In this document: positions 8,842 to 62,452 of the stretch, piece after piece
Layout: each line of letters begins with the position of its first letter
Numbering within the stretch: the stretch's first letter is position 1
Source of the DNA: Candidatus Staskawiczbacteria bacterium RIFCSPHIGHO2_01_FULL_39_25
Lineage (GTDB): Bacteria > Patescibacteriota > Minisyncoccia > Minisyncoccales > Staskawiczbacteraceae
Direction of reading: 5' to 3'
DNA length: 64,000 nt
NCBI GenBank assembly: GCA_001820095.1
Contig: MHOO01000004.1
Location: 1,749-65,748 of the forward strand
Position numbers and translations under genes: made by a program
Notes under the pieces: generated by a model
Told to the model about the DNA's origin: nothing
What the model saw: the letters and a program-made list of their open reading frames with translations, nothing else
Databases searched by the model: none

Positions 8842-9090
8842 TAGGTAGGGGAATCCCGCGCTGGCTGATTGTGCGATTGAGATGTTTTCCCAGAACTATA
8901 GACCTCTTGCAAAATAAGTTTTGACTGCAAATTGTATATTTCGGCCACAAATTCGCTATAATTTTTTACCGTATCCAGAGGATACGCTAAAAAATTCTAT
9001 CAAATTTGCATCTCAAAATCTTCAATTTTCGTTACAAAACTTATTTTGCAAGATGTCTTATGTTTGGACTACATCCCACTTCTCGCGCAA
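8839..9090 (-). pseudogene. short ORF family 1, copy B, split by a MITE-like insertion and carrying TTG instead of ATG
   Basis: LREKWDVVQT | MITE | FWENISIAQSAS.. aligns codon for codon with copy A. Six changes are synonymous and three are conservative. Confidence 0.45.
8897..9060. mobile_element. MITE-like palindromic element, variant TIR (CTTGCAAAATAAGTTTTG), copy M1
   Basis: Absent from the paralogous sequence at 1346..1351. It shares the core AAATTCGCTATAATTTT-hairpin-AAAATTCTATCAAATTT with the copy at 46142..46317. Confidence 0.6.
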
Positions 9091-11549: not shown

Positions 11550-11640
11550 AATTCAAAATCCCGAAAGTTAAATCTGGCATATAAATACACTCATTCTGTT
11601 GGTGTATAATATTTCTAACGTTGTTGACGACGTCGCGCAT
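11542..11640 (-). CDS. short ORF family 2, copy C3 (32 aa, MRDVVNNVRNIIHQQNECIYMPDL...)
   Basis: ATG at 11640..11638 at the junction with element M copy 2. It overlaps the cupin 3' end by 8 nt. Confidence 0.35.
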   Translation of the reverse strand: MRDVVNNVRNIIHQQNECIYMPDLTFGILNFM

Positions 11641-11778
11641 ATGGAAAAAGACTGTCTACAAGACAGTCTTTTTTCATATATCTGATTGGGATTTGAAGGG
11701 CGCCGAGTTCCTTTGTTGACATTGTGTGAGGCGCCCAGGCCGCGAGTCGAAGCGAGCGGAAATCCCCTCGCTCGCGCA
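11640..11778. mobile_element. 139-nt element M, copy 2, bounded by TCGCGCA (11633..11639 and 11772..11778)
   Basis: Same length as 1379..1517. The central 5 nt of the first hairpin are reverse-complemented (TACAA here, TTGTA in copy 1). Confidence 0.6.
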
Positions 11779-11788
11779 CAATAGTACG

Positions 11789-11852
11789 AACAGATCCTTC
11801 GGGGTCTGTTTTGTTTTGTAAATCTGGCATTTTGCTCTGAATTTGCTATAAT
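11789..11852 (+). promoter_or_regulatory. module R2: terminator hairpin (11789..11815), 12-nt partial L2 repeat (11819..11830), extended -10 TGcTATAAT (11844..11852)
   Basis: CAGATCC-ttcg-GGGTCTG plus a T-run. TAAATCTGGCAT repeats 11569..11580. The TGn+TATAAT lies upstream of 11990..12550. Confidence 0.4.
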
Positions 11853-11989
11853 AAAGCCGACCGAACGGCCTTAGCTGGAAATTGCCCAAGATCCCCAAAT
11901 TTGTTCCTGAAATCTTGATCTGGACCGAAGAGGTGCGTTGGTTGCACTTTTTATCCTGAACTTTAACAAACTTTATGTGAGGGACGCCC

Positions 11990-12943: not shown

Positions 12944-12971
12944 TTGACAAGATTTTATGATATGCTATAAT
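12944..12971 (+). promoter_or_regulatory. near-consensus sigma70-type promoter TTGACA-16-TGcTATAAT
   Basis: -35 at 12944..12949 and -10 at 12966..12971 with a TG at -15/-14. It precedes a leader of about 240 nt before the ATG at 13213. Confidence 0.6.
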
Positions 12972-13212
12972 TAAGATATAGAGTTAAAAGTGGCAAAACA
13001 GAGCTAAATAGGCTCAAAAGTACCTTTCTTTCAAATCATTACCATGAGATTTAACCGATTTTCAGGATTACGATAGTATTCCAGATTCAAGATTCAAAAT
13101 TCTAAATTCATAGCATAGTGATTTGAAAGAAGGGTATGTTGCCCTTTCATTTTAACTCCGAGATTTTCGCGCTTGCCATGGCAGGAGATCTCAAGGAAAA
13201 AGGAGAAATAAC

Positions 13213-13458
13213 ATGGCTACGACAATGGTTCGGTCGAGTTGGACGGGCACCAGGGGCATTGTGGATCTCGCTTTGCCCGATGACTGGGACGAAGCCTTCA
13301 TGGAAGTCAAGGAGAAGTCCTTGGATTCCCACGAGGAATTCTCGTCTCGGTTCGTGGCGACCGTCTGGGACTGGGCGAAGGAGCCGGACAATCTTGGCAG
13401 TGATGCCAAGAAGATGAACATTGTCGAATTGGCCGAGTACTGGTATGAATTCGGCTAA
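13213..13458 (+). CDS. hypothetical acidic protein (81 aa), high-GC orphan
   Basis: SD AAGGAG upstream and protein-like sequence, chosen over the R/S/P-rich overlapping frames. Terminator at 13529..13558. Confidence 0.55.
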   Translation: MATTMVRSSWTGTRGIVDLALPDDWDEAFMEVKEKSLDSHEEFSSRFVATVWDWAKEPDNLGSDAKKMNIVELAEYWYEFG

Positions 13459-14411: not shown

Positions 14412-14437
14412 TGTATACTAATAATTGATTGTGGCCA

Positions 14438-14711
14438 TAGGAGTGCGGGATTTGAACACAATCAAGTTTAGAAGCCAAAAAATGAAATAATTTCAAGGCT
14501 TGCCGAAGGAGGCGTAGCCCATGCGCTACGCCGAGGAGGTATAACGCAGAAATTATTCATTTTTTGGCTTCCCGTAGGGCGGGCGAATTAAGCCAAGTTT
14601 CTTCGTTGCTCGTCGAGAACGTACCGCAGAGGGTACGTTCTCTTCCTCACGCCTTGAATCTTGGCTTAATTCGCTCCGCTAAATTGATTGTATTCGAATC
14701 CCGCACTCCTA
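14438..14711. repeat. nested palindromic element: 28-bp outer stem enclosing three further long hairpins
   Basis: Outer arms 14438..14465 / 14684..14711. Inner stems 14472..14494 / 14549..14570, 14585..14597 / 14660..14672 and 14615..14625 / 14632..14642. Confidence 0.7.
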
Positions 14712-14765
14712 GGGGTGTGGGACGTGAACAGAATCAAGCTGGTTCGTGTTCGACCCCCACACCCC
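14712..14765. repeat. 54-nt 'empty' hairpin paralogous to the outer stem of 14438..14711
   Basis: GGGACGTGAACAGAATCAAG here matches GGGATTTGAACACAATCAAG (14446..14465). Closing helix GGGGTGTGGG / CCCACACCCC. Confidence 0.6.
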
Positions 14766-14823
14766 TTAACTTCGCCCATCGGCAAGAGGTCTAATAGTTT
14801 CGGTGGGTGAAGTTTATCGTACC

Positions 14824-16031: not shown

Positions 16032-16065
16032 TTGACTTGCCTCGCAGAATTTATTAATCTTTAAT

Positions 16066-16240
16066 TACCTTGAATTACGAAATGCACTATTAAAAAACAG
16101 TTTTCGGGTCTTTTTCCCAAATTCGGGTCGAAAATCCGCAATAATTCCAAAACGTAGCTTGCTACGTTTTGGAATTCTATCACATTTTCGCCTTCCAAAT
16201 TTAGAAAAAATACCGCGAAAGCATTTCGTAATCCAAGGTA
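16066..16240. mobile_element. MITE-like palindromic element, copy M2 (175 bp)
   Basis: 20-bp TIRs TACCTTGAATTACGAAATGC / GCATTTCGTAATCCAAGGTA. The internal second-order palindrome carries the central hairpin CCAAAACGTAGC..GCTACGTTTTGG. Confidence 0.7.
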
Positions 16241-16279
16241 AATAGTTCCTTTTTGTACCTTAACAAATGGAGTTGTAGT

Positions 16280-37890: not shown

Positions 37891-38017
37891 AAATTATCCT
37901 ATGAATTACGAATCTTAGCGAATTACGAATACGTTTTAAAATTTTGTACTTTCATTTTATAGGTTAATGAAAATCAAAACAAGTGTTGCTAAAATTTGTG
38001 AGTATGATATTGTTTAG

Positions 38018-38097
38018 TTACCTTGAATTACGAAATGCTTTCATGGGAAAAGACCCGAAACTCGTTTTTTCAAGGTGCATTTCGTAATTCAAAGTAA
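38018..38097. mobile_element. MITE-like element, short copy M3 (80 bp)
   Basis: TIRs TTACCTTGAATTACGAAATGC / GCATTTCGTAATTCAAAGTAA. Internal GAAAAGACCCGAAA is the reverse complement of TTTCGGGTCTTTTC in the long copies. Flanks are TTTAG|..|TTAG. Confidence 0.7.
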
Positions 38098-38120
38098 TTA
38101 GTTCTTTTAGGAGGCAAGCT

Positions 38121-43909: not shown

Positions 43910-44335
43910 ATGGCTTCACGGCACTTATCACGTTCAATCGTCATGCAATCGCTTTATGAGTGGGACTTTTACGGCAAGAAAGAAAACTCTTTACAGGCAA
44001 TTACTGAAAGGAATATTAGGGATTTCGGCCCTGGACTAGAGGATGTAAAATTTGTCTATGAACTAATTGAGGGCATTGTAAAGCATTTAAAAGAGATTGA
44101 TAATATCATTGAAAAGGCGGCTCCCGAATGGCCAATTTCCCAGATTCCCTTGATTGATAGAAATGTGTTGCGGATAGGCCTGTACGAACTTTTATATAGC
44201 AACAAAGAAGAAGTTCCGCCCAAGGTTGCCATCAATGAAGCAATTGAGTTGGCAAAAAATTTTTCAGGGCAAACTTCTGGAAAATTTGTGAATGGAGTGC
44301 TGGGAACCGTGTTTAAACAACTAGAAAACAAATAG
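43910..44335 (+). CDS. nusB: transcription antitermination factor NusB
   Basis: [29 protein letters not shown] and NEAIELAK. Confidence 0.9.
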
Positions 44336-44415
44336 CGACACTAATTACTAATCGCATACTAATGTACGAATATTCGTAAATTCGTGTGCCATTCGTAGAT
44401 TGGAGTCGCATTATA

Positions 44416-45108
44416 ATGAAGGATTTTGATCTATTTGAAAAAAAATTAGGCTTGCAATTTAAGAATAAAGATCTTTTAATCCAGGCATTTGTCCATCGGT
44501 CTTACTTAAATGAAAACCCGGAATTTGGCTTAGAGCAAAACGAGCGGTTGGAGTTTTTAGGAGATGCCGTATTAGAATTAATAATTACCGAGTATCTTTA
44601 CAAAGAACATCCCCAAAAAGCAGAAGGTGAATTAACTAATTGGAGGGCGGCATTAGTAAATGCCAAAATGTTGACTTCGGTTGCGGAAGAATTAGGCTTT
44701 AACGACTTTTTGCTATTGTCCCGCGGAGAAACAAAAGAACTAGGGAAGGCGCGCCAATATATTCTGGCAAATACTTTTGAAGCGTTCGTAGGTTCGCTGT
44801 ATCTTGATTCAGGATACCAGGCGGCAGATCAGTTTATTAAAAAATACGTACTGGTAAAACTTTCCGATATCATCCAGAATAAGCTGTATAAAGATGCTAA
44901 ATCCCATTTTCAAGAACAAGCCCAAGATAAAATGGGAATTACTCCGGCATATAACGTGATGAAAGAGTGGGGGCCGGACCATAAAAAAAAATTTACGGTA
45001 GGAGTGTTTTTGGATGAAGACCTTATTGCAGAAGGAGAAGGATATTCAAAGCAGGAAGCAGAGGAGGAGGCAGCAAAAAAAGCTCTTAGTGTAAAAGGAT
45101 GGAATTAA
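44416..45108 (+). CDS. rnc: ribonuclease III
   Basis: AFVHRSY..NERLEFLGDAVLELIITEYLY signature and a C-terminal dsRBD. ATG at 44416 preferred to GTG at 44386. Confidence 0.93.
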   Translation: MKDFDLFEKKLGLQFKNKDLLIQAFVHRSYLNENPEFGLEQNERLEFLGDAVLELIITEYLYKEHPQKAEGELTNWRAALVNAKMLTSVAEELGFNDFLLLSRGETKELGKARQYILANTFEAFVGSLYLDSGYQAADQFIKKYVLVKLSDIIQNKLYKDAKSHFQEQAQDKMGITPAYNVMKEWGPDHKKKFTVGVFLDEDLIAEGEGYSKQEAEEEAAKKALSVKGWN

Positions 45109-45234: not shown

Positions 45235-45603
45235 ATGTTAACTATTAGGCTTACTCGCAAGGGCAAAAAAAACCAGCCATTTTTCAAAGTGGTGGTTATT
45301 GATAAAAAGAGATCTGCAAAAGGGGGAAGGGCAGTGGAAGTTTTAGGATATGTTGACCCTTTAACAAAAAGGAAATCTTTGAAAAAAGAACGGATTTTGC
45401 ATTGGATAAAAAATGGAGCACAGCCATCAGCCACGATTCATAATTTATTAATCAATGAAAAGATTATTGAGGGCAAAAAAATCCATGTAGCTAAGGCAAA
45501 GAAAAGCAAAGAAGTCCAACCTACATCCGCTGCATCAGCGCCCGCAGCTCAACCTGCTGAAAAACCAGCAGAAAAGGCAGTTGAGCCGCCGATTCTTCCT
45601 TAA
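45235..45603 (+). CDS. rpsP: 30S ribosomal protein S16 with an A/P-rich C-terminal extension
   Basis: MLTIRLTRKGKKNQPFFKVVV.D.....GR..E.LGY.DP. Confidence 0.93.
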   Translation: MLTIRLTRKGKKNQPFFKVVVIDKKRSAKGGRAVEVLGYVDPLTKRKSLKKERILHWIKNGAQPSATIHNLLINEKIIEGKKIHVAKAKKSKEVQPTSAASAPAAQPAEKPAEKAVEPPILP

Positions 45604-45634
45604 CAAGAACTGCTTAGAGGTAAATTTTTGCATA

Positions 45635-45664
45635 TTGACAAAGGCTATGCTTTTTTGATAAGAT
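45635..45664 (+). promoter_or_regulatory. promoter TTGACA-18-TGaTAAGAT
   Basis: -35 at 45635..45640, and an extended -10 with TG at 45656..45657 and TAAGAT at 45659..45664. Confidence 0.5.
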
Positions 45665-45670
45665 ACGGTT

Positions 45671-46090
45671 AGATAGCTCATTTAATTAAGAGACAGAAAA
45701 AAGTAGCTCTGTTAATTGATCTCCAGAAAATTGTTCATCTCTAAGGTGGACAGTTTTCTGGAGACAGTTAATAGAGTACCTTGGCGCGGCATATGACCTC
45801 GTGCCAGGGTGCGCAAGATACTCTCTTGTGCTGTATAGGGGACGTTCCTCCTCTTTGACGGAAGGATCGTCTTAAAGAGAAGCGCGCGCTTAAGGTGTCC
45901 TCTCCTGTGAGGAGCTTTAGAGGCAAGCTAGCTTCTAAGGATTCGGATATCCTTCAAAGCCGCCTTGGCGACTCTTGTCGCATCCCCCTAAAATCTCTAT
46001 TACTGTCTCCTTTGTTCTTCTTCATTTCTCCGCTCCGGCGGGCTTTATTCATAGGCTGCAACTACTCTGTTGTGGCCTATATTTTTATAT
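45671..46090 (+). ncRNA. candidate structured ncRNA of about 420 nt, family unknown
   Basis: It runs from the promoter to the terminator (GGCTGCAAC-tactct-GTTGTGGCC plus TATATTTTT, 46054..46090). At least 8 hairpins. Visibly GC-richer than the flanks. Only junk-like ORFs. Confidence 0.5.
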
Positions 46091-46141
46091 TAAGGACATG
46101 CAAACAGATCTATTGATTATGCATAATTTGTGTTATATAAT

Positions 46142-46317
46142 ATCTTTGAATTACGAAATGCCCATTTAAAACGTTTTTTCGGGTCTTTTCCCAGAATTTG
46201 GGCTATAAATTCGCTATAATTTTCAGGCGGACGCGTTGCGTAAGCCTGAAAATTCTATCAAATTTCTATCTCCAAATTCTGGAAAAATACCGCGAAAGCA
46301 TTTCGTAAATCAAAGAT
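46142..46317. mobile_element. MITE-like palindromic element, copy M4 (176 bp)
   Basis: TIRs ATCTTTGAATTACGAAATGC / GCATTTCGTAAATCAAAGAT. Core AAATTCGCTATAATTTT-CAGGCGGACGCGTTGCGTAAGCCTG-AAAATTCTATCAAATTT. Confidence 0.7.
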
Positions 46318-46421
46318 ATTTATTTGATTTTAAGAACAAGTGAATTGGGCCCCCACACCATAAATTCAAAAAATTTTGGTGTAGGGGTGAAGTAGAACGC
46401 TGGAGTGTACATAACTTTGGT

Positions 46422-46632
46422 GGGCTCATAGTTCAGTGGTAGAACGCTGTCTTGCACAGCTTTTATGGGGGGCCCGTAGTTCAGTGGTAGAACGCTGTCC
46501 TGATAAGACAGAGGTCAAAGGTCCGATTCCTTTCGGGCCCACCATAAAAGCTGGAAAATTAACATTTAGAAAAATAAACAGAAAATTTTCCTAAGACAGA
46601 GGTCGAAGGTCCGATTCCTTCTGAGCCCACCA
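46422..46632 (+). tRNA. interrupted tRNA: 5' half 46422..46456 and 3' half 46593..46629 plus CCA, with a 136-nt intervening sequence in the anticodon loop (anticodon GCA/Cys most parsimonious, ambiguous)
   Basis: Acceptor GGGCTCA/TGAGCCC is 7/7 paired. The D arm and anticodon stem CTGTC/GACAG match the inner tRNA. T arm GAAGG-TCCGATT-CCTTC. The leader/trailer helix CATAACTTTGGT/ACCAAAGTTATG is 12 bp. Confidence 0.55.
46470..46544 (+). tRNA. tRNA-Ile(GAU)-like, 72 nt plus encoded CCA, nested inside the interrupted tRNA
   Basis: GGGCCCG-TA-GTTC-AGTGGTA-GAAC-G-CTGTC-CTGATAA-GACAG-AGGTC-AAAGG-TCCGATT-CCTTT-CGGGCCC-A-CCA. The T loop is atypical (C at position 55). Confidence 0.7.
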
Positions 46633-46670
46633 AAGTTATGAGCTTTATATAAAAGTAAATTTTAAAAAAT

Positions 46671-47030
46671 ATGTTTGCAAAAATTAATAAAAGAGTATTA
46701 ATTATTGGCGCAATATCCTTAGTCGCGTTCTTAGCTATTGGATTAGCTTTTTATCTGTATTTATTTTCAGCAAAACCAGAAGCGGAAGATACTAATATCG
46801 GTCACGTAGAAATCCCATCAGAAGATGAAGATTCAAATGCATCGCCTTCAGAAAGCGGGATAGAAATTATTGAAAAAGAGGGTTCTCCCAAGGGAGGTTT
46901 AACTATTTGCGCTGATAAGTGCGGAAATGGAATCTGTGAAAATAAAGAAGAGGATTTAAAATGCAAGGACGGCAGCCCAAATTGCGTATGTCCTGAAAGC
47001 CTTCAAGTGTGTCCGCAAGACTGTAAATAG
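46671..47030 (+). CDS. membrane-anchored Cys-rich small protein
   Basis: N-terminal TM (VLIIGAISLVAFLAIGLAFYLYLF), an acidic linker and a C-terminal cluster of 10 Cys. Terminator at 47045..47085. Confidence 0.55.
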   Translation: MFAKINKRVLIIGAISLVAFLAIGLAFYLYLFSAKPEAEDTNIGHVEIPSEDEDSNASPSESGIEIIEKEGSPKGGLTICADKCGNGICENKEEDLKCKDGSPNCVCPESLQVCPQDCK

Positions 47031-61371: not shown

Positions 61372-62393
61372 GAGAAATTGGCGATAAAAAAATATGGGAG
61401 GATTTTCTTTTGCCGTGCACGCAGAAAACATTTCTCCAATCCTGGAATTGGGGCAATTTTCATATTTCACTGGGAAACAAGATATGGAGGTTGGGAATTT
61501 ATGAAAATAACTCTTTGATTGCGGTGGCGCTGGTGATCAAAATTTTTGCCAAAAGGGGATCTTTTTTGCTGGTTCCGCATGGCCCGGTTGTCATGGAACA
61601 TGGAATATGGAACATGGAACAAATCCTAAAGACCTTGCTAAATTCATTACAAGAATTAGCGAAACAAGAAAAAGTGGATTTTATAAGGATAAGCCCTATT
61701 TGGGAAAGAACTCCAGAAAACATCGTTTGTTTTAAACGACTGGGGTTTAGGACAGCTCCCTTGCACTACCATCCCGAGTCCAGCTGGAAGCTGAATATTG
61801 GAGCTGAAGAAAATGTGCTGTTTGACCAAATGAGAAAAACTACCAGATATTTGCTGCGGCAAGCCCAAAAAGATGCAAATGTTGAGATAGTTAAAAGCAC
61901 GAGCATAGAAGACATGAAAATTTTCTATGATATACACCAAGAGGTGGTAAAGGTGCAAAAGTTTGTGCCATTTTCATTAGACTACCTAACTAAAGAATTA
62001 TTAGCTTTTTTGCCTGATGCCCAAATTGCTATTTTCTTTGCCAAATATAATGGAGAAATTATTGCGGGAGCCTACGAAATTTTTTGGTCAGGTATCGGAT
62101 TTTACCACCATGCCGCTCTTTTGCCCAAGTATAAAAAAATTCCCGTGTCGTATTTGTTGCAGTGGGAGGCTATAAAAGAAGCTAAAAAAAGAGGGTGCAT
62201 CCTGTATGACTTTTGGGGGTACGCCGATCCGGTTAAAAACCCAACGCATCCATACGCCGGGCCGACGTTATTTAAAATGGGGTTTGGGGGCTATAAGGCA
62301 GAATACGTGAAAACCCAGGATTTGGTGATTTCTCAAAAATATTGGATAAATTATACTATAGAAACAATCAGGAAAATTAAAAGGGGCTTGTAA
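61362..62393 (+). CDS. FemAB-family peptidyltransferase (peptidoglycan interpeptide bridge formation)
   Basis: FLQSWNWGNF N-terminus and a GNAT-like duplicated fold, with a length and motifs typical of FemX/FemAB. Confidence 0.75.
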   Translation: MEVREIGDKKIWEDFLLPCTQKTFLQSWNWGNFHISLGNKIWRLGIYENNSLIAVALVIKIFAKRGSFLLVPHGPVVMEHGIWNMEQILKTLLNSLQELAKQEKVDFIRISPIWERTPENIVCFKRLGFRTAPLHYHPESSWKLNIGAEENVLFDQMRKTTRYLLRQAQKDANVEIVKSTSIEDMKIFYDIHQEVVKVQKFVPFSLDYLTKELLAFLPDAQIAIFFAKYNGEIIAGAYEIFWSGIGFYHHAALLPKYKKIPVSYLLQWEAIKEAKKRGCILYDFWGYADPVKNPTHPYAGPTLFKMGFGGYKAEYVKTQDLVISQKYWINYTIETIRKIKRGL

Positions 62394-62452
62394 ACTTTGA
62401 ATTACAAAATGCTTTCATGGTATTTTTATTGGGCATTTCGTAATTCAAAGTT
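62393..62452. mobile_element. MITE-like element, minimal copy M5 (60 bp)
   Basis: TIRs AACTTTGAATTACAAAATGC / GCATTTCGTAATTCAAAGTT. Flanks are GTAA|..|GTAA. Confidence 0.65.

What the first reader, a model, noticed from the sequence alone, without database searches (positions are those of the whole stretch)
45635..46090. Promoter-to-terminator unit of about 420 nt, GC-rich and hairpin-dense, with no match to the RNA families I can recognise
- **Boundaries:** a TTGACA-18-TGaTAAGAT promoter is followed by an ORF-poor stretch and a good terminator (9-bp stem plus T-run, 46054..46090).
- **Local hairpins:** at least eight. Examples are 45706..45730/45752..45776 (about 23 bp), GCGCAAGA-tactc-TCTTGTGC, GACGTTCC..GGAAGGATCGTC, TTAGAGGC..GCTTCTAA, AAGGAT-tcggat-ATCCTT and GCGAC-tctt-GTCGC.
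- **Alternative pairing:** 45760..45776 can instead pair with 45995..46011, closing a 218-nt core. This is a possible switch.
- **Context:** it lies between rpsP and the tRNA locus.
- **Motifs not found:** RNase P CR-I (GGAAAGTCC), the tmRNA T-arm/ACCA, SRP domain IV and the T-box.
Basis: partly seen in the sequence, partly recalled or inferred. Interest (0 to 1): 0.6.

Follow-up and report, generated by a model that had tools for sequence, protein, structure and literature searches.

The report
rRNA-style RNA unit beside tRNA-Ile
The flagged stretch is a real member of a previously uncatalogued, conserved RNA family in Parcubacteria. It has the promoter, boxA-like signals and long closing helix of a ribosomal-RNA transcription unit, but encloses a short, fast-evolving structured core instead of an rRNA.

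Summary
Window 45635-46090 (+) has a sigma-70-like promoter, no credible ORF, a terminator, and an RNA fold far more stable than shuffles (z = -9.5).

Rfam 15 has no match. Relatives anchored on rpsP lack it, but homologues turned up once I anchored on the tRNA-Ile(GAU) gene downstream. I found 28 more units, each directly upstream of that tRNA and in the same orientation.

**Conserved parts**
- A promoter.
- A 5' hairpin (H1).
- A 13-18 bp long-range helix (P1).
- A boxA-like motif (GCTCTTTYACAA) just after P1, in 21 of 29 units.
- A small hairpin and a terminator.

H1 and P1 both show strong compensatory change. A model built without the window still finds window 45712-45777 (49.5 bits).

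**The core** (62-311 nt) is GC-rich and structured on the sense strand, but almost unalignable between members.

In six other loci a true 16S gene occupies the same position before this tRNA-Ile.

**Best reading:** an rrn-style unit with Nus/boxA loading, a leader-trailer helix and probable RNase III processing, releasing a short stable RNA of unknown role. The boxA and RNase III steps are inferred, not shown.

The parts
45635..45664 (+). Sigma-70-type promoter (TTGACA, 18 nt, TG-n-TAAGAT)
   Evidence: One search prints the 95 nt upstream of H1 for 21 units: 19 show a TTGACA-type -35 with a -10-like hexamer 45-60 nt upstream of H1, L213 shows none and L170 is cut by its contig end. The other units were not examined.
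45676..45688 (+). 5' leader motif GCTCATTTAATTA, weakly boxA-like
   Evidence: Relatives carry AGTTCTTTAAAAA, AGAACATTTAAAA or GTTCATTGAAAA at the same place. Only 8 of 29 units are within 3 mismatches of GTTCTTTAAAAA, so this assignment is weak.
45690..45696 (+). GAGACAG, a window-specific alternative partner of the trailer strand (pairs with 46003-46009)
   Evidence: MFE fold, pair probability 0.96. I did not look for an equivalent in the other members.
45706..45719 (+). Window-specific 5' extension of hairpin H1 (pairs with 45765-45777 and so competes with P1)
   Evidence: The other members have only the shorter AACTGTCC strand here.
45712..45777 (+). H1, the conserved leader hairpin of the family
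   Evidence: Model R2, built without the window, scores 49.5 bits, E = 1.6e-9. Covariation: 90.6% of cells paired and 20 of 24 pairs with changes on both sides.
45760..45776 (+). Leader strand of the closing helix P1 (GGAGACAGTTAATAGAG); its 5' half is also the 3' strand of H1
   Evidence: The family consensus is GGACAGTTGGCAGAG.
45778..45994 (+). GC-rich structured core (two hairpins plus a multi-branch domain), hypervariable across the family
   Evidence: Folds. Core z = -5.3, with the + strand 11.8 kcal/mol more stable than the - strand. No sequence similarity to the other cores.
45995..46010 (+). Trailer strand of P1 (CTCTATTACTGTCTCC)
   Evidence: The family consensus is CTCTGCCAACTGTCC. 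GGC/GCC in the consensus is replaced by AAT/ATT here, a compensatory change.
46014..46025 (+). Degenerate boxA-like element (GTTCTTCTTCAT)
   Evidence: It aligns with the conserved GCTCTTTYACAA block of the family. It did not pass the scan at <= 3 mismatches. L195 has GTTCTTTCATAA and L095 has GCTCTTTCATAC.
46029..46042 (+). Small hairpin with a UCCG loop, in the position of a boxB-like hairpin after boxA
   Evidence: Nearly identical in L095 (CCGCTTCGGCGG). Other members show a hairpin at the same place in the printed sequences.
46051..46090 (+). Intrinsic-terminator-like hairpin with a T run
   Evidence: A hairpin plus T run follows P1 in 28 of 29 units.
46113..46141 (+). Promoter-like site that in relatives lies directly before tRNA-Ile. 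Here a repeat element (46139-46320) and a tRNA fragment separate it from the tRNA.
46470..46544 (+). tRNA-Ile(GAU), the conserved downstream neighbour of the family

Best explanation
Window 45635-46090 (+) is one member of a conserved Parcubacteria RNA family built like a ribosomal-RNA transcription unit without an rRNA.

**Proposed mechanism**
1. A strong sigma-70-type promoter starts a transcript of about 420 nt.
2. A leader hairpin (H1) forms first.
3. The strand just 3' of H1 then pairs with a strand about 220 nt downstream. This makes a 13-18 bp leader-trailer helix (P1) that closes a compact, GC-rich core whose sequence is not conserved.
4. A boxA-like element and a small hairpin follow the trailer strand. 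A weaker boxA-like motif lies in the leader.
5. An intrinsic terminator ends the unit just before the separately promoted tRNA-Ile(GAU) gene.

**Shown here**
- The family exists.
- H1 and P1 are maintained by compensatory change.
- The linkage to tRNA-Ile is conserved.
- The cores are structured on the sense strand.
- A motif matching the boxA of true 16S leaders in related contigs is present.

**Inferred, by analogy with rrn operons**
- NusB/S10 bind the boxA sites.
- RNase III cuts the long H1/P1 duplex and releases a short stable RNA.
- The overlap between H1 and P1 orders folding or processing.
- The unit descends from the 16S slot of an rrn operon.

The cellular role of the released core is unknown.
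For: **Fold and strand**
- z = -9.5 on the + strand against -5.0 on the - strand. 19 G.U pairs and no A.C mismatch.

**Homologues**
- 28 further units were found after scanning metagenome contigs with a tRNA-Ile(GAU) pattern.
- Every one lies upstream of the tRNA in the same orientation: 257-562 nt from the end of H1 in 26 of the 28. The exceptions are L127 (680 nt) and L112 (1360 nt); in the window the gap is 691 nt.

**H1 covariation**
- 90.6% of cells paired, 20 of 24 pairs changed on both sides, 0 of 500 shuffles as high. Covariation score 0.529 against 0.08-0.15 for slid partners.

**P1 covariation**
- 89.4% paired, 13 of 15 pairs changed on both sides, 0 of 500 shuffles. Score 0.473 against 0.08-0.14.
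- New members not used for the model show the same P1 with further compensatory changes.

**Membership of the window**
- A model built without the window hits 45712-45777 at 49.5 bits, E = 1.6e-9.

**boxA-like block**
- It lies 2-12 nt after P1 in 21 of 29 units.
- The same sequence, GCTCTTTCACAATT, lies 90 nt upstream of a true 16S gene in L183. GTTCTTTAAAAAT lies upstream of the 16S in L057.
- The published gamma-proteobacterial consensus is GYTCTTTAANA (PMC5725501).

**Position**
- A true 16S gene precedes the same tRNA-Ile in six loci. In L183 a terminator and a promoter also lie between the 16S and the tRNA.

**Cores**
- GC is 7-21 points above the locus value in every unit.
- Median fold z = -2.77, and the sense strand is more stable in 22 of 28 (p = 3.8e-4).

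**Required proteins**
- NusB and RNase III genes are present in the window.

**Reference architecture**
- Leader-trailer helices, RNase III cleavage and two boxB/A/C sets per rrn operon are described in PMC10250234.
Against: - No rRNA is enclosed, and no rRNA similarity appears at E <= 10.
- True 16S leaders in the fetched loci show no H1/P1 sequence similarity. Descent from an rrn operon therefore rests on architecture and position only.
- boxA identity is purely in silico. In the window itself the element is degenerate (GTTCTTCTTCAT) and failed the scan at <= 3 mismatches.
- The 5' boxA-like motif is inconsistent, matching in 8 of 29 units.
- The main boxA lies 3' of the enclosed RNA. A chaperone-type role for the enclosed RNA would need it 5'.
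- In the window, the MFE fold prefers the extended H1 plus a 7-bp substitute helix over P1, by 12.9 kcal/mol.
- The P1 trailer strands were located by complementarity, which inflates the percentage paired. Their position is independently fixed by the adjacent boxA-like block.
- All loci were fetched through one tRNA pattern, so family members elsewhere in genomes would have been missed.
- There are no expression or cleavage data.
Confidence: 0.5

Rival explanations
1. It is a cis-acting leader or attenuator of the tRNA-Ile gene. The mutually exclusive pairings (H1 base against P1) and the nut-like boxA-plus-hairpin set how often RNA polymerase reads through the terminator into tRNA-Ile and the genes beyond. 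The core is only a structured spacer.
For: - Linkage and co-orientation with tRNA-Ile hold in 29 of 29 units.
- In every member, 5-12 nt of the middle strand can pair with either partner.
- The boxA-like element plus hairpin lies 0-180 nt before a terminator.
- Nus-modified polymerase can resist terminators (PMC10250234).
Against: - In every unit I inspected for it, the tRNA has its own TTGNNN-17-TGnTAAAAT-type promoter between the terminator and the tRNA.
- The competing strands do not overlap the terminator stem, so no terminator/antiterminator alternative is apparent.
- In the window a repeat element and a tRNA fragment now separate the unit from the tRNA, yet the unit is intact.
Confidence: 0.17
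2. It is a trans-acting regulator or decoy. The RNA works through its conserved flanks, titrating NusB/S10 (two boxA-like sites) and/or RNase III (a 35-40 bp quasi-continuous duplex). This would couple rRNA/tRNA expression to the supply of these factors.
For: - The flanks are conserved while the core is free to vary.
- Nus-factor autoregulation through boxA in non-rRNA transcripts is documented (PMC5725501).
- In this genome the unit sits directly after nusB-rnc-rpsP with no intervening terminator.
Against: - The nusB-rnc neighbourhood is specific to this genome. Other members follow a glutamyl-tRNA-amidotransferase-like gene, a MOSC-domain gene or a tRNA.
- The 5' boxA-like site is weak.
- There are no binding data.
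Confidence: 0.15
3. It is a non-functional relic of an rrn operon. The flanks of a 16S gene were left behind when the rRNA genes became unlinked, and they are now decaying.
For: - It occupies the same position as the 16S in six related loci.
- Patescibacteria often have unlinked rRNA genes (10.1101/705046).
- The cores are hypervariable.
- The window copy has a degenerate boxA-like block and a rearranged neighbourhood.
Against: - The compensatory changes in H1 and P1 occurred among lineages that all lack the 16S here. Pairing has therefore been selected since any such loss.
- A promoter-like site is kept in the 19 of 21 units where I could check it, and a terminator in 28 of 29.
- The cores keep sense-strand structure.
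- L126 carries two tandem copies and L120 two 3' blocks.
Confidence: 0.1
4. It is a mobile or repeat element (MITE-like, with terminal inverted repeats), or a small protein-coding gene.
For: - The 45760-45776 and 45995-46010 segments look like terminal inverted repeats.
- The genome is rich in palindromic repeats.
- JGI called a minus-strand gene here.
Against: - It is single-copy in the window and was seen only beside tRNA-Ile in the fetched loci.
- No target-site duplication is present.
- There are 19 G.U pairs against no A.C mismatches, and the fold energies are strand-asymmetric. The true palindromic element at 14435-14714 is strand-symmetric.
- No ORF has a Shine-Dalgarno sequence and a start codon under code 11. 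NCBI and ENA annotations call no gene here.
- No similarity to neighbouring small proteins.
Confidence: 0.03

Closest known systems
Pre-16S rRNA leader-trailer helix with rrn antitermination elements (boxB/boxA/boxC)
   Same: - A promoter is followed by a leader motif and a leader hairpin.
- A long helix forms between sequences flanking the enclosed RNA, 13-18 bp here. More than 17 bp is needed in E. coli (PMC10250234).
- A second boxA-like set follows the trailer strand.
- tRNA-Ile(GAU) lies downstream.
- The boxA-like sequence is the same as in true 16S leaders of related contigs.
   Different: - It encloses 62-311 nt of non-conserved sequence, not a 1.5-kb rRNA.
- The best-conserved boxA lies after the enclosed RNA, not before it.
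- The unit ends at an intrinsic terminator.
- The leader hairpin shares 5-12 nt with the leader strand, giving mutually exclusive pairings.
- No sequence similarity to the true leaders was detected.
Lambda-type nut site (boxA, spacer, boxB hairpin)
   Same: A boxA-like element, about 10 nt of spacer and a short hairpin lie upstream of a terminator.
   Different: No N-like protein is known here. The hairpin sequence is not conserved. Function is untested.
rRNA spacers and intervening sequences (ITS, IVS)
   Same: They are GC-rich and structured but hypervariable in sequence. They are bounded by conserved helices that are RNase III substrates.
   Different: The unit is an independent transcription unit with its own promoter and terminator. 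It is not embedded in an rRNA precursor.
boxA in non-rRNA transcripts (suhB 5' UTR, CRISPR leaders)
   Same: A boxA-like element occurs outside rRNA genes (PMC5725501, PMC7665894).
   Different: Those elements precede a gene or an array that they regulate. Here the element follows a closed structured RNA and precedes a terminator.
Housekeeping RNAs of similar size (RNase P RNA, tmRNA, 6S RNA, SRP RNA)
   Same: Similar length, GC enrichment in an AT-rich genome, own promoter and terminator, and 5'/3' pairing.
   Different: No Rfam hit even at E <= 10. The core is not conserved between members, which is incompatible with these families.

Membership tests
The new family (H1-P1-boxA' unit upstream of tRNA-Ile) | Leader hairpin H1 matching the family covariance model | tested here: met
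   Model R2, built without the window and without L095, hits window 45712-45777 (+) at 49.5 bits, E = 1.6e-9. It is the only site in the 64 kb apart from its own reverse strand.
The new family (H1-P1-boxA' unit upstream of tRNA-Ile) | Long-range helix between the strand 3' of H1 and a strand just before the boxA-like block | tested here: met
   45760-45776 pairs with 45995-46010, 16 bp with one bulge, -23.4 to -24.0 kcal/mol. It is in register with the family alignment and carries compensatory changes.
The new family (H1-P1-boxA' unit upstream of tRNA-Ile) | boxA-like block GCTCTTTYACAA within 12 nt after the trailer strand | tested here: inconclusive
   The window has GTTCTTCTTCAT at 46014-46025. 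It aligns to the block but exceeds 3 mismatches. The 3'-block profile scores it at only E = 0.1.
The new family (H1-P1-boxA' unit upstream of tRNA-Ile) | Directly upstream of tRNA-Ile(GAU), in the same orientation | tested here: met
   The tRNA is at 46470-46544, 691 nt after H1. The gap is longer than in most relatives because of an inserted repeat and a tRNA fragment.
rrn operon (pre-16S transcription unit) | Encloses a ribosomal RNA | tested here: not met
   No SSU, LSU or 5S hit at gathering score or at E <= 10. The core is 216 nt.
rrn operon (pre-16S transcription unit) | Leader-trailer helix flanking the enclosed RNA | tested here: met
   P1 with covariation. It forms with >= 8 bp in the MFE fold of 23 of 29 units.
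rrn operon (pre-16S transcription unit) | boxA bound by NusB/NusE | not testable with these tools
   Only a sequence match: to GYTCTTTAANA (PMC5725501) and to the boxA of true 16S leaders in L183 and L057.
rrn operon (pre-16S transcription unit) | RNase III cleavage of the helix | not testable with these tools
   An rnc gene is present at 44386-45108. The duplex length is adequate. There are no cleavage data.
RNase P RNA, tmRNA, 6S RNA, SRP RNA (Rfam) | Match to the family covariance model | tested here: not met
   ARAGORN finds no tmRNA.
MITE or other small mobile element | Multiple dispersed copies with terminal inverted repeats and target-site duplications | tested here: not met
   Single-copy in the window. 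No hit in phage records or in the viral-contig scans. The flanks differ (TTTTCT against TTTGTT).
Riboswitch or attenuator leader | Alternative structure overlapping the terminator, with a regulated downstream gene lacking its own promoter | tested here: not met
   The competing strands lie 40-180 nt from the terminator. The tRNA has its own promoter in the units I inspected.

The most novel reading that the evidence does not exclude
This is a new class of bacterial RNA gene: an 'orphan rrn scaffold'. It keeps the expression and maturation signals of a ribosomal RNA (rRNA-type promoter, boxA sites, leader-trailer helix). Selection maintains it while it encloses only a short, rapidly diverging structured RNA. 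It would act either as a sensor or titrator of the rRNA transcription and processing machinery (Nus factors, RNase III) in genome-reduced CPR bacteria. Alternatively, it would deliver a fast-evolving functional RNA. The conserved competition between H1 and P1 would be a built-in folding or processing switch.
Probability: 0.3. Interest if true: 0.8.

Novelty: new variant of a known kind. Interest (0 to 1): 0.66.

Why it matters
- It adds a conserved, covariation-supported RNA family from the Candidate Phyla Radiation. Rfam 15 lacks it, and five full-text searches plus one targeted look-up in a motif catalogue did not turn it up.
- If the rrn-like reading is right, the modules that make ribosomal RNA (boxA/Nus loading, leader-trailer helix, RNase III processing) can be kept under selection without an rRNA. 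That bears on how rRNA operons break up in organisms with unlinked rRNA genes. It also bears on what the leader-trailer and antitermination elements do on their own.
- It gives a small, tractable substrate for testing CPR RNase III and NusB/S10 specificity.
- Practical lesson: the homologues were invisible to nhmmer and to synteny on the rpsP side. They appeared only after anchoring on the tRNA gene.

Tried and rejected
**Searches that found no homologue**
- Synteny through rpsP: 73 genome loci plus 8 loci from closer S16 relatives. nhmmer found nothing. Those genomes carry rpsP-KH-trmD-tRNA or unrelated small-gene cassettes instead.
- Ten independent assemblies of the same strain. All were 100% identical across the unit, so no polymorphism was available.
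- Exact-pattern scans from the core: three in viral contigs and one in metagenomes. They gave nothing or chance hits.
- Phage records by blastn: no match.
- Transporter-anchored loci. One of five (L095) had the homologue; the others did not.

**Hypotheses rejected**
- A decayed small-gene cassette or pseudogene: tblastn of neighbouring ORFs gave only noise.
- ORFs under code 11 or code 4: none credible.
- A DNA-level palindrome: rejected on G.U against A.C asymmetry and strand-asymmetric fold energies.
- Ideas from memory (dif site, integron attC, TIGR array, retron, omega or bridge RNA): dropped for lack of the defining partner gene or repeat.
- An rRNA fragment: no rRNA motifs and no Rfam hit.

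**Open or negative side results**
- True 16S leaders were searched for the H1 and P1 sequences. Only an isolated TTGGCAGAG turned up in L141, with no partner.
- Cores were compared all against all. Only three pairs are alignable, so I built no core consensus structure.
Full report
**1. What is at the coordinates**

Window 45635-46090 lies between rpsP (45235-45603) and a tRNA locus.
- The promoter scan finds TTGACA-18-TAAGAT with an upstream TG at 45635-45664, 10 of 12 matches.
- It also finds a 12-bp terminator stem at 46051-46080 followed by a T run, and a smaller hairpin at 46029-46042.
- No terminator lies between the rpsP stop codon and this promoter. rpsP transcripts probably read into the unit as well.
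- No frame combines a Shine-Dalgarno sequence with a start codon. The longest ORF is 73 aa from a GTG and runs through the terminator.
- NCBI and ENA annotations of the same sequence call no gene here. One JGI call on the minus strand does not correspond to a code-11 ORF.

**2. Is the structure more than chance, and on which strand?**

- The + strand folds at -178.7 kcal/mol against -123.1 +/- 5.8 for dinucleotide shuffles (z = -9.5). The - strand gives -141.0 (z = -5.0).
- The + strand fold contains 19 G.U pairs and no A.C mismatch (its only 1x1 mismatch is U.U). The hairpins lose 2-21 kcal/mol when read on the other strand.
- A genuinely palindromic element elsewhere in the window (14435-14714) is equally stable on both strands.
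- So this structure is selected at the RNA level on the + strand.
- The region is single-copy in the window.

**3. Known families**

- Rfam 15 gives no match at gathering thresholds in the whole window. In 45400-46700 at E <= 10 there are only generic hairpin (microRNA-precursor type) hits.
- ARAGORN finds no tmRNA.

**4. Looking for relatives: what failed**

- The organism is a Candidatus Staskawiczbacteria (GCA_001822005.1). Ten independent assemblies carry the unit 100% identical.
- 73 genome loci found through S16, plus loci for closer S16 relatives, contain no similarity to the unit.
- Those genomes have rpsP-KH-trmD-tRNA-L33, sometimes with inserted small-gene cassettes. The KH, trmD and L33 genes are not in this window at all.
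- rpsP therefore sits at a synteny breakpoint.
- Exact-pattern scans taken from the core found nothing.

**5. What worked**

- A relative anchored on the downstream amino-acid transporter (70% identity) carries a unit of the same build. This is L095, GCA_030648355.1.
  - It has a promoter and a hairpin with the same CCAGA(R)AATTGT sequence.
  - It has a GC-rich body and a pyrimidine-rich tail.
  - It has a nearly identical small hairpin (CCGCTTCGGCGG), then a terminator.
  - A promoter and an intact tRNA-Ile(GAU) follow.
- I then used that tRNA as the anchor.
- Sequence profiles and then a covariance model of the hairpin found units in 27 of these loci. With L095 and the window that makes 29.
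- Nine of the 29 were not in the model's seed.
- About 90 loci fetched through S16 or the transporter gave no hit apart from L095, except two weak short palindromes (E 0.009 and 0.075).
- In every unit the sense orientation scores higher than the reverse complement.
- A model built without the window and without L095 hits window 45712-45777 (+) at 49.5 bits, E = 1.6e-9.

**6. Anatomy of the family, 5' to 3'**

- **Promoter.** Of the 21 units whose upstream 95 nt I printed, 19 show a TTGACA-type -35 with a -10-like hexamer 45-60 nt before the hairpin. L213 shows none and L170 is cut by its contig end.
- **Leader motif.** A short leader motif (AGTTCTTTAAAAA, AGAACATTTAAAA, GTTCATTGAAAA) follows in many members. 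Only 8 of 29 are within 3 mismatches of one form.
- **H1.** A hairpin with 13-24 bp formed in the MFE folds; consensus AACTGTCCGGAAAATTG...AATTTTCCGGACAGTT.
- **P1 leader strand.** TTGGCAGAG follows H1 with no linker.
- **Core.** 62-311 nt.
- **P1 trailer strand.** CTCTGCCAACTGTCC.
- **boxA-like block.** GCTCTTTYACAA lies 2-12 nt after the trailer strand in 21 of 29 units.
- **Small hairpin**, then a hairpin plus T run in 28 of 29 units.
- **tRNA promoter.** A promoter-like site and tRNA-Ile follow.
- L126 carries two units in tandem, and L120 has two 3' blocks.

**7. Covariation**

- **H1.** MAFFT alignment of native, contiguous sequences from 20 members.
  - 90.6% of cells form standard pairs.
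  - 20 of 24 pairs changed on both sides (72 cells).
  - Covariation score 0.529, against 0.256 +/- 0.017 for shuffles (0 of 500 as high) and 0.08-0.15 with partners slid by 1-3 columns.
- **P1.** 21 members.
  - 89.4% paired.
  - 13 of 15 pairs changed on both sides (35 cells).
  - Score 0.473, against 0.234 for shuffles (0 of 500) and 0.08-0.14 slid.
- **Caveat on P1.** I located the trailer strands by complementarity, which inflates the percentage paired. Their position is fixed independently by the adjacent conserved block. Members found later show the same helix with new compensatory changes, for example GGACGGCTGGTAGAGG/CCTCACCAGCCGTCC and GAGGCAGCTGGCGGGT/ACCCGCCAGCTGCCTC.
- **The window.** Its version is GGAGACAGTTAATAGAG/CTCTATTACTGTCTCC, so GGC/GCC has become AAT/ATT.

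**8. A conserved competition**

- The six to eight nucleotides GGACAG(TT) at the 3' base of H1 are complementary to two strands. One is the 5' strand of H1; the other is the outer part of the trailer strand.
- In all 29 units, 5-12 nt of this middle strand can pair with either partner.
- All three strands change together in divergent members (window, L095, L106, L170).
- In MFE folds P1 forms with >= 8 bp in 23 of 29 units, alongside H1.
- H1 and P1 share one continuous strand. Together they make a quasi-continuous duplex of about 35-40 bp, and the 5' leader and 3' tail leave it at the same point.
- The window is an extreme case. Its H1 5' strand is extended (45706-45718) to match the whole leader strand, and an extra GAGACAG (45690-45696) can pair with the trailer strand instead. 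The local fold then beats the P1 fold by 12.9 kcal/mol.

**9. The core**

- Cores are 7-21 GC points above their locus in every unit.
- They share almost no sequence: only three pairs of cores are alignable.
- They still fold better than dinucleotide shuffles (median z = -2.77; z < -2 in 75%).
- They are more stable on the sense strand in 22 of 28 (Wilcoxon p = 3.8e-4).
- A motif (GCAGTGCAA-hairpin-TTGTGAGA) recurs in only a subset.
- This pattern of conserved flanks and a structured but unconserved interior does not fit RNase P RNA, tmRNA, 6S or SRP RNA. It resembles rRNA spacers and intervening sequences instead.

**10. The rrn connection**

- The 3' block matches the boxA consensus GYTCTTTAANA, apart from a pyrimidine at position 8 (PMC5725501). 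L205 matches it exactly.
- The same variant, GCTCTTTCACAATT, lies 90 nt upstream of a true 16S gene in L183. GTTCTTTAAAAAT lies upstream of the 16S in L057. L195's block is a BLAST match to the latter.
- In six of the tRNA-anchored loci (L141, L146, L157, L161, L180, L183) a 16S gene lies immediately upstream of the same tRNA-Ile. None of these carries a unit there.
- In L183 the 16S is flanked by a leader-trailer helix of about 22 bp. A terminator and a separate promoter follow before the tRNA, the same layout as in the family.
- In rrn operons, complementary flanks form leader-trailer helices cut by RNase III. One boxB/A/C set follows the promoter and a second set lies further downstream (PMC10250234).
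- Patescibacteria commonly have unlinked rRNA genes (10.1101/705046).
- The window encodes NusB (43910-44335) and RNase III (44386-45108).
- Against common descent: true 16S leaders show no detectable H1 or P1 sequence.

**11. Interpretation**

*Shown*
- A real, + strand, structured RNA unit.
- Membership in a conserved family with two covarying helices.
- Fixed linkage to tRNA-Ile(GAU).
- A boxA-like block shared with true 16S leaders.
- Structured but unconserved cores.

*Inferred*
- Nus-factor binding.
- RNase III processing of the H1/P1 duplex.
- An rrn-operon origin.
- A folding or processing role for the H1/P1 competition.

*Rivals*
- A leader controlling read-through into tRNA-Ile.
- A titrator of Nus factors or RNase III.
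- A neutral relic. This is disfavoured: the compensatory changes arose among lineages that already lack a 16S at this site.
- A mobile element or a small ORF.

The window copy looks somewhat derived. Its boxA-like block is degenerate (GTTCTTCTTCAT), and its H1 is extended. A repeat element and a split tRNA copy lie between it and the functional tRNA.

**12. Limits**

The true distribution and any tRNA-independent copies are unknown.
- Model E-values are rough because calibration was shortened.
- Folds are predictions.
- boxA and RNase III roles rest on sequence and architecture only.
- Five full-text searches and one targeted look-up in a motif catalogue found no prior description. The library is incomplete.

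Noticed in passing
window 46410-46640: tRNA-Ile(GAU) at 46470-46544 is nested inside a second, split tRNA-Ile copy. The 5' half is at 46421-46454 and the 3' half at 46592-46632, 89-90% identical to the inner gene. The stems are extended to 19-20 bp. The split outer copy matches the intact tRNA-Ile of L095, which itself has an extra 3'-half copy downstream. Partial 5' halves also precede tRNA-Ile in L107 and L115. In L110 the tRNA is interrupted after the D-arm by an insert carrying an ORF that looked GIY-YIG-like by eye (no domain search run). A 2026 paper reports group I introns in Patescibacteria tRNA genes (PMC13011429, abstract only read).
   Followed up: partly
window 46139-46320; also 16062-16244, 38015-38100, 62393-62452, about 8900-9058: A MITE-like repeat family with terminal inverted repeats TTGAATTACGAAATGC / GCATTTCGTAATTCAAAG and variable interiors. 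One copy sits between the unit's terminator region and the tRNA locus. Several assemblies break inside it.
   Followed up: partly
window 12946-13458; L011 4792-6817 (four copies); L014, L016, L069, L084, L087: A recurring cassette: a TTGACA/TATAAT promoter, about 50 nt, a long hairpin with a conserved base CYTTCTTTCA...TGAAAGAAGGG and a variable top, then a small GC-rich ORF with no Pfam match. In relatives these cassettes fill the space after rpsP. No Rfam match.
   Followed up: partly
window 14435-14770: A deeply nested palindromic element of about 330 nt (fold z about -14 on both strands). Its outer arms resemble the T-arm and acceptor 3' end of a tRNA (GTTCAAATCCCGCACTCC). A GGGGTGTGGG...CCCCCACACCCC hairpin follows; a similar hairpin lies at 46340-46390.
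   Followed up: partly
window 45604-46670 against L011-L094: Synteny breaks immediately after rpsP. Relatives have L32-nusB-rnc-rpsP-KH-trmD-tRNA-Tyr-tRNA-Thr-L33, often with insertions after rpsP. KH, trmD and L33 are absent from the whole 64-kb window.
   Followed up: yes
L126 (two units), L120 (two 3' blocks): Tandem duplication of the RNA unit upstream of one tRNA-Ile.
   Followed up: no
L155 2181-2282: A SAM riboswitch (57 bits) lies directly downstream of the tRNA-Ile that follows one family member.
   Followed up: no
L141 (reverse strand) about 215 nt upstream of the 16S: A true 16S leader contains a short hairpin followed by TTGGCAGAG, identical to the family's P1 leader strand. No complementary CTCTGCCAA was found in the 9.4-kb locus. 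It may be chance or a remnant of shared ancestry.
   Followed up: partly
window 11600-11860: Another GC-rich non-coding island (GC up to 0.53) with hairpins, next to a 19-bp perfect palindromic terminator that is repeated at 1378-1418. Only a weak sub-threshold Rfam hit (Atu_C3, 27.6 bits).
   Followed up: no
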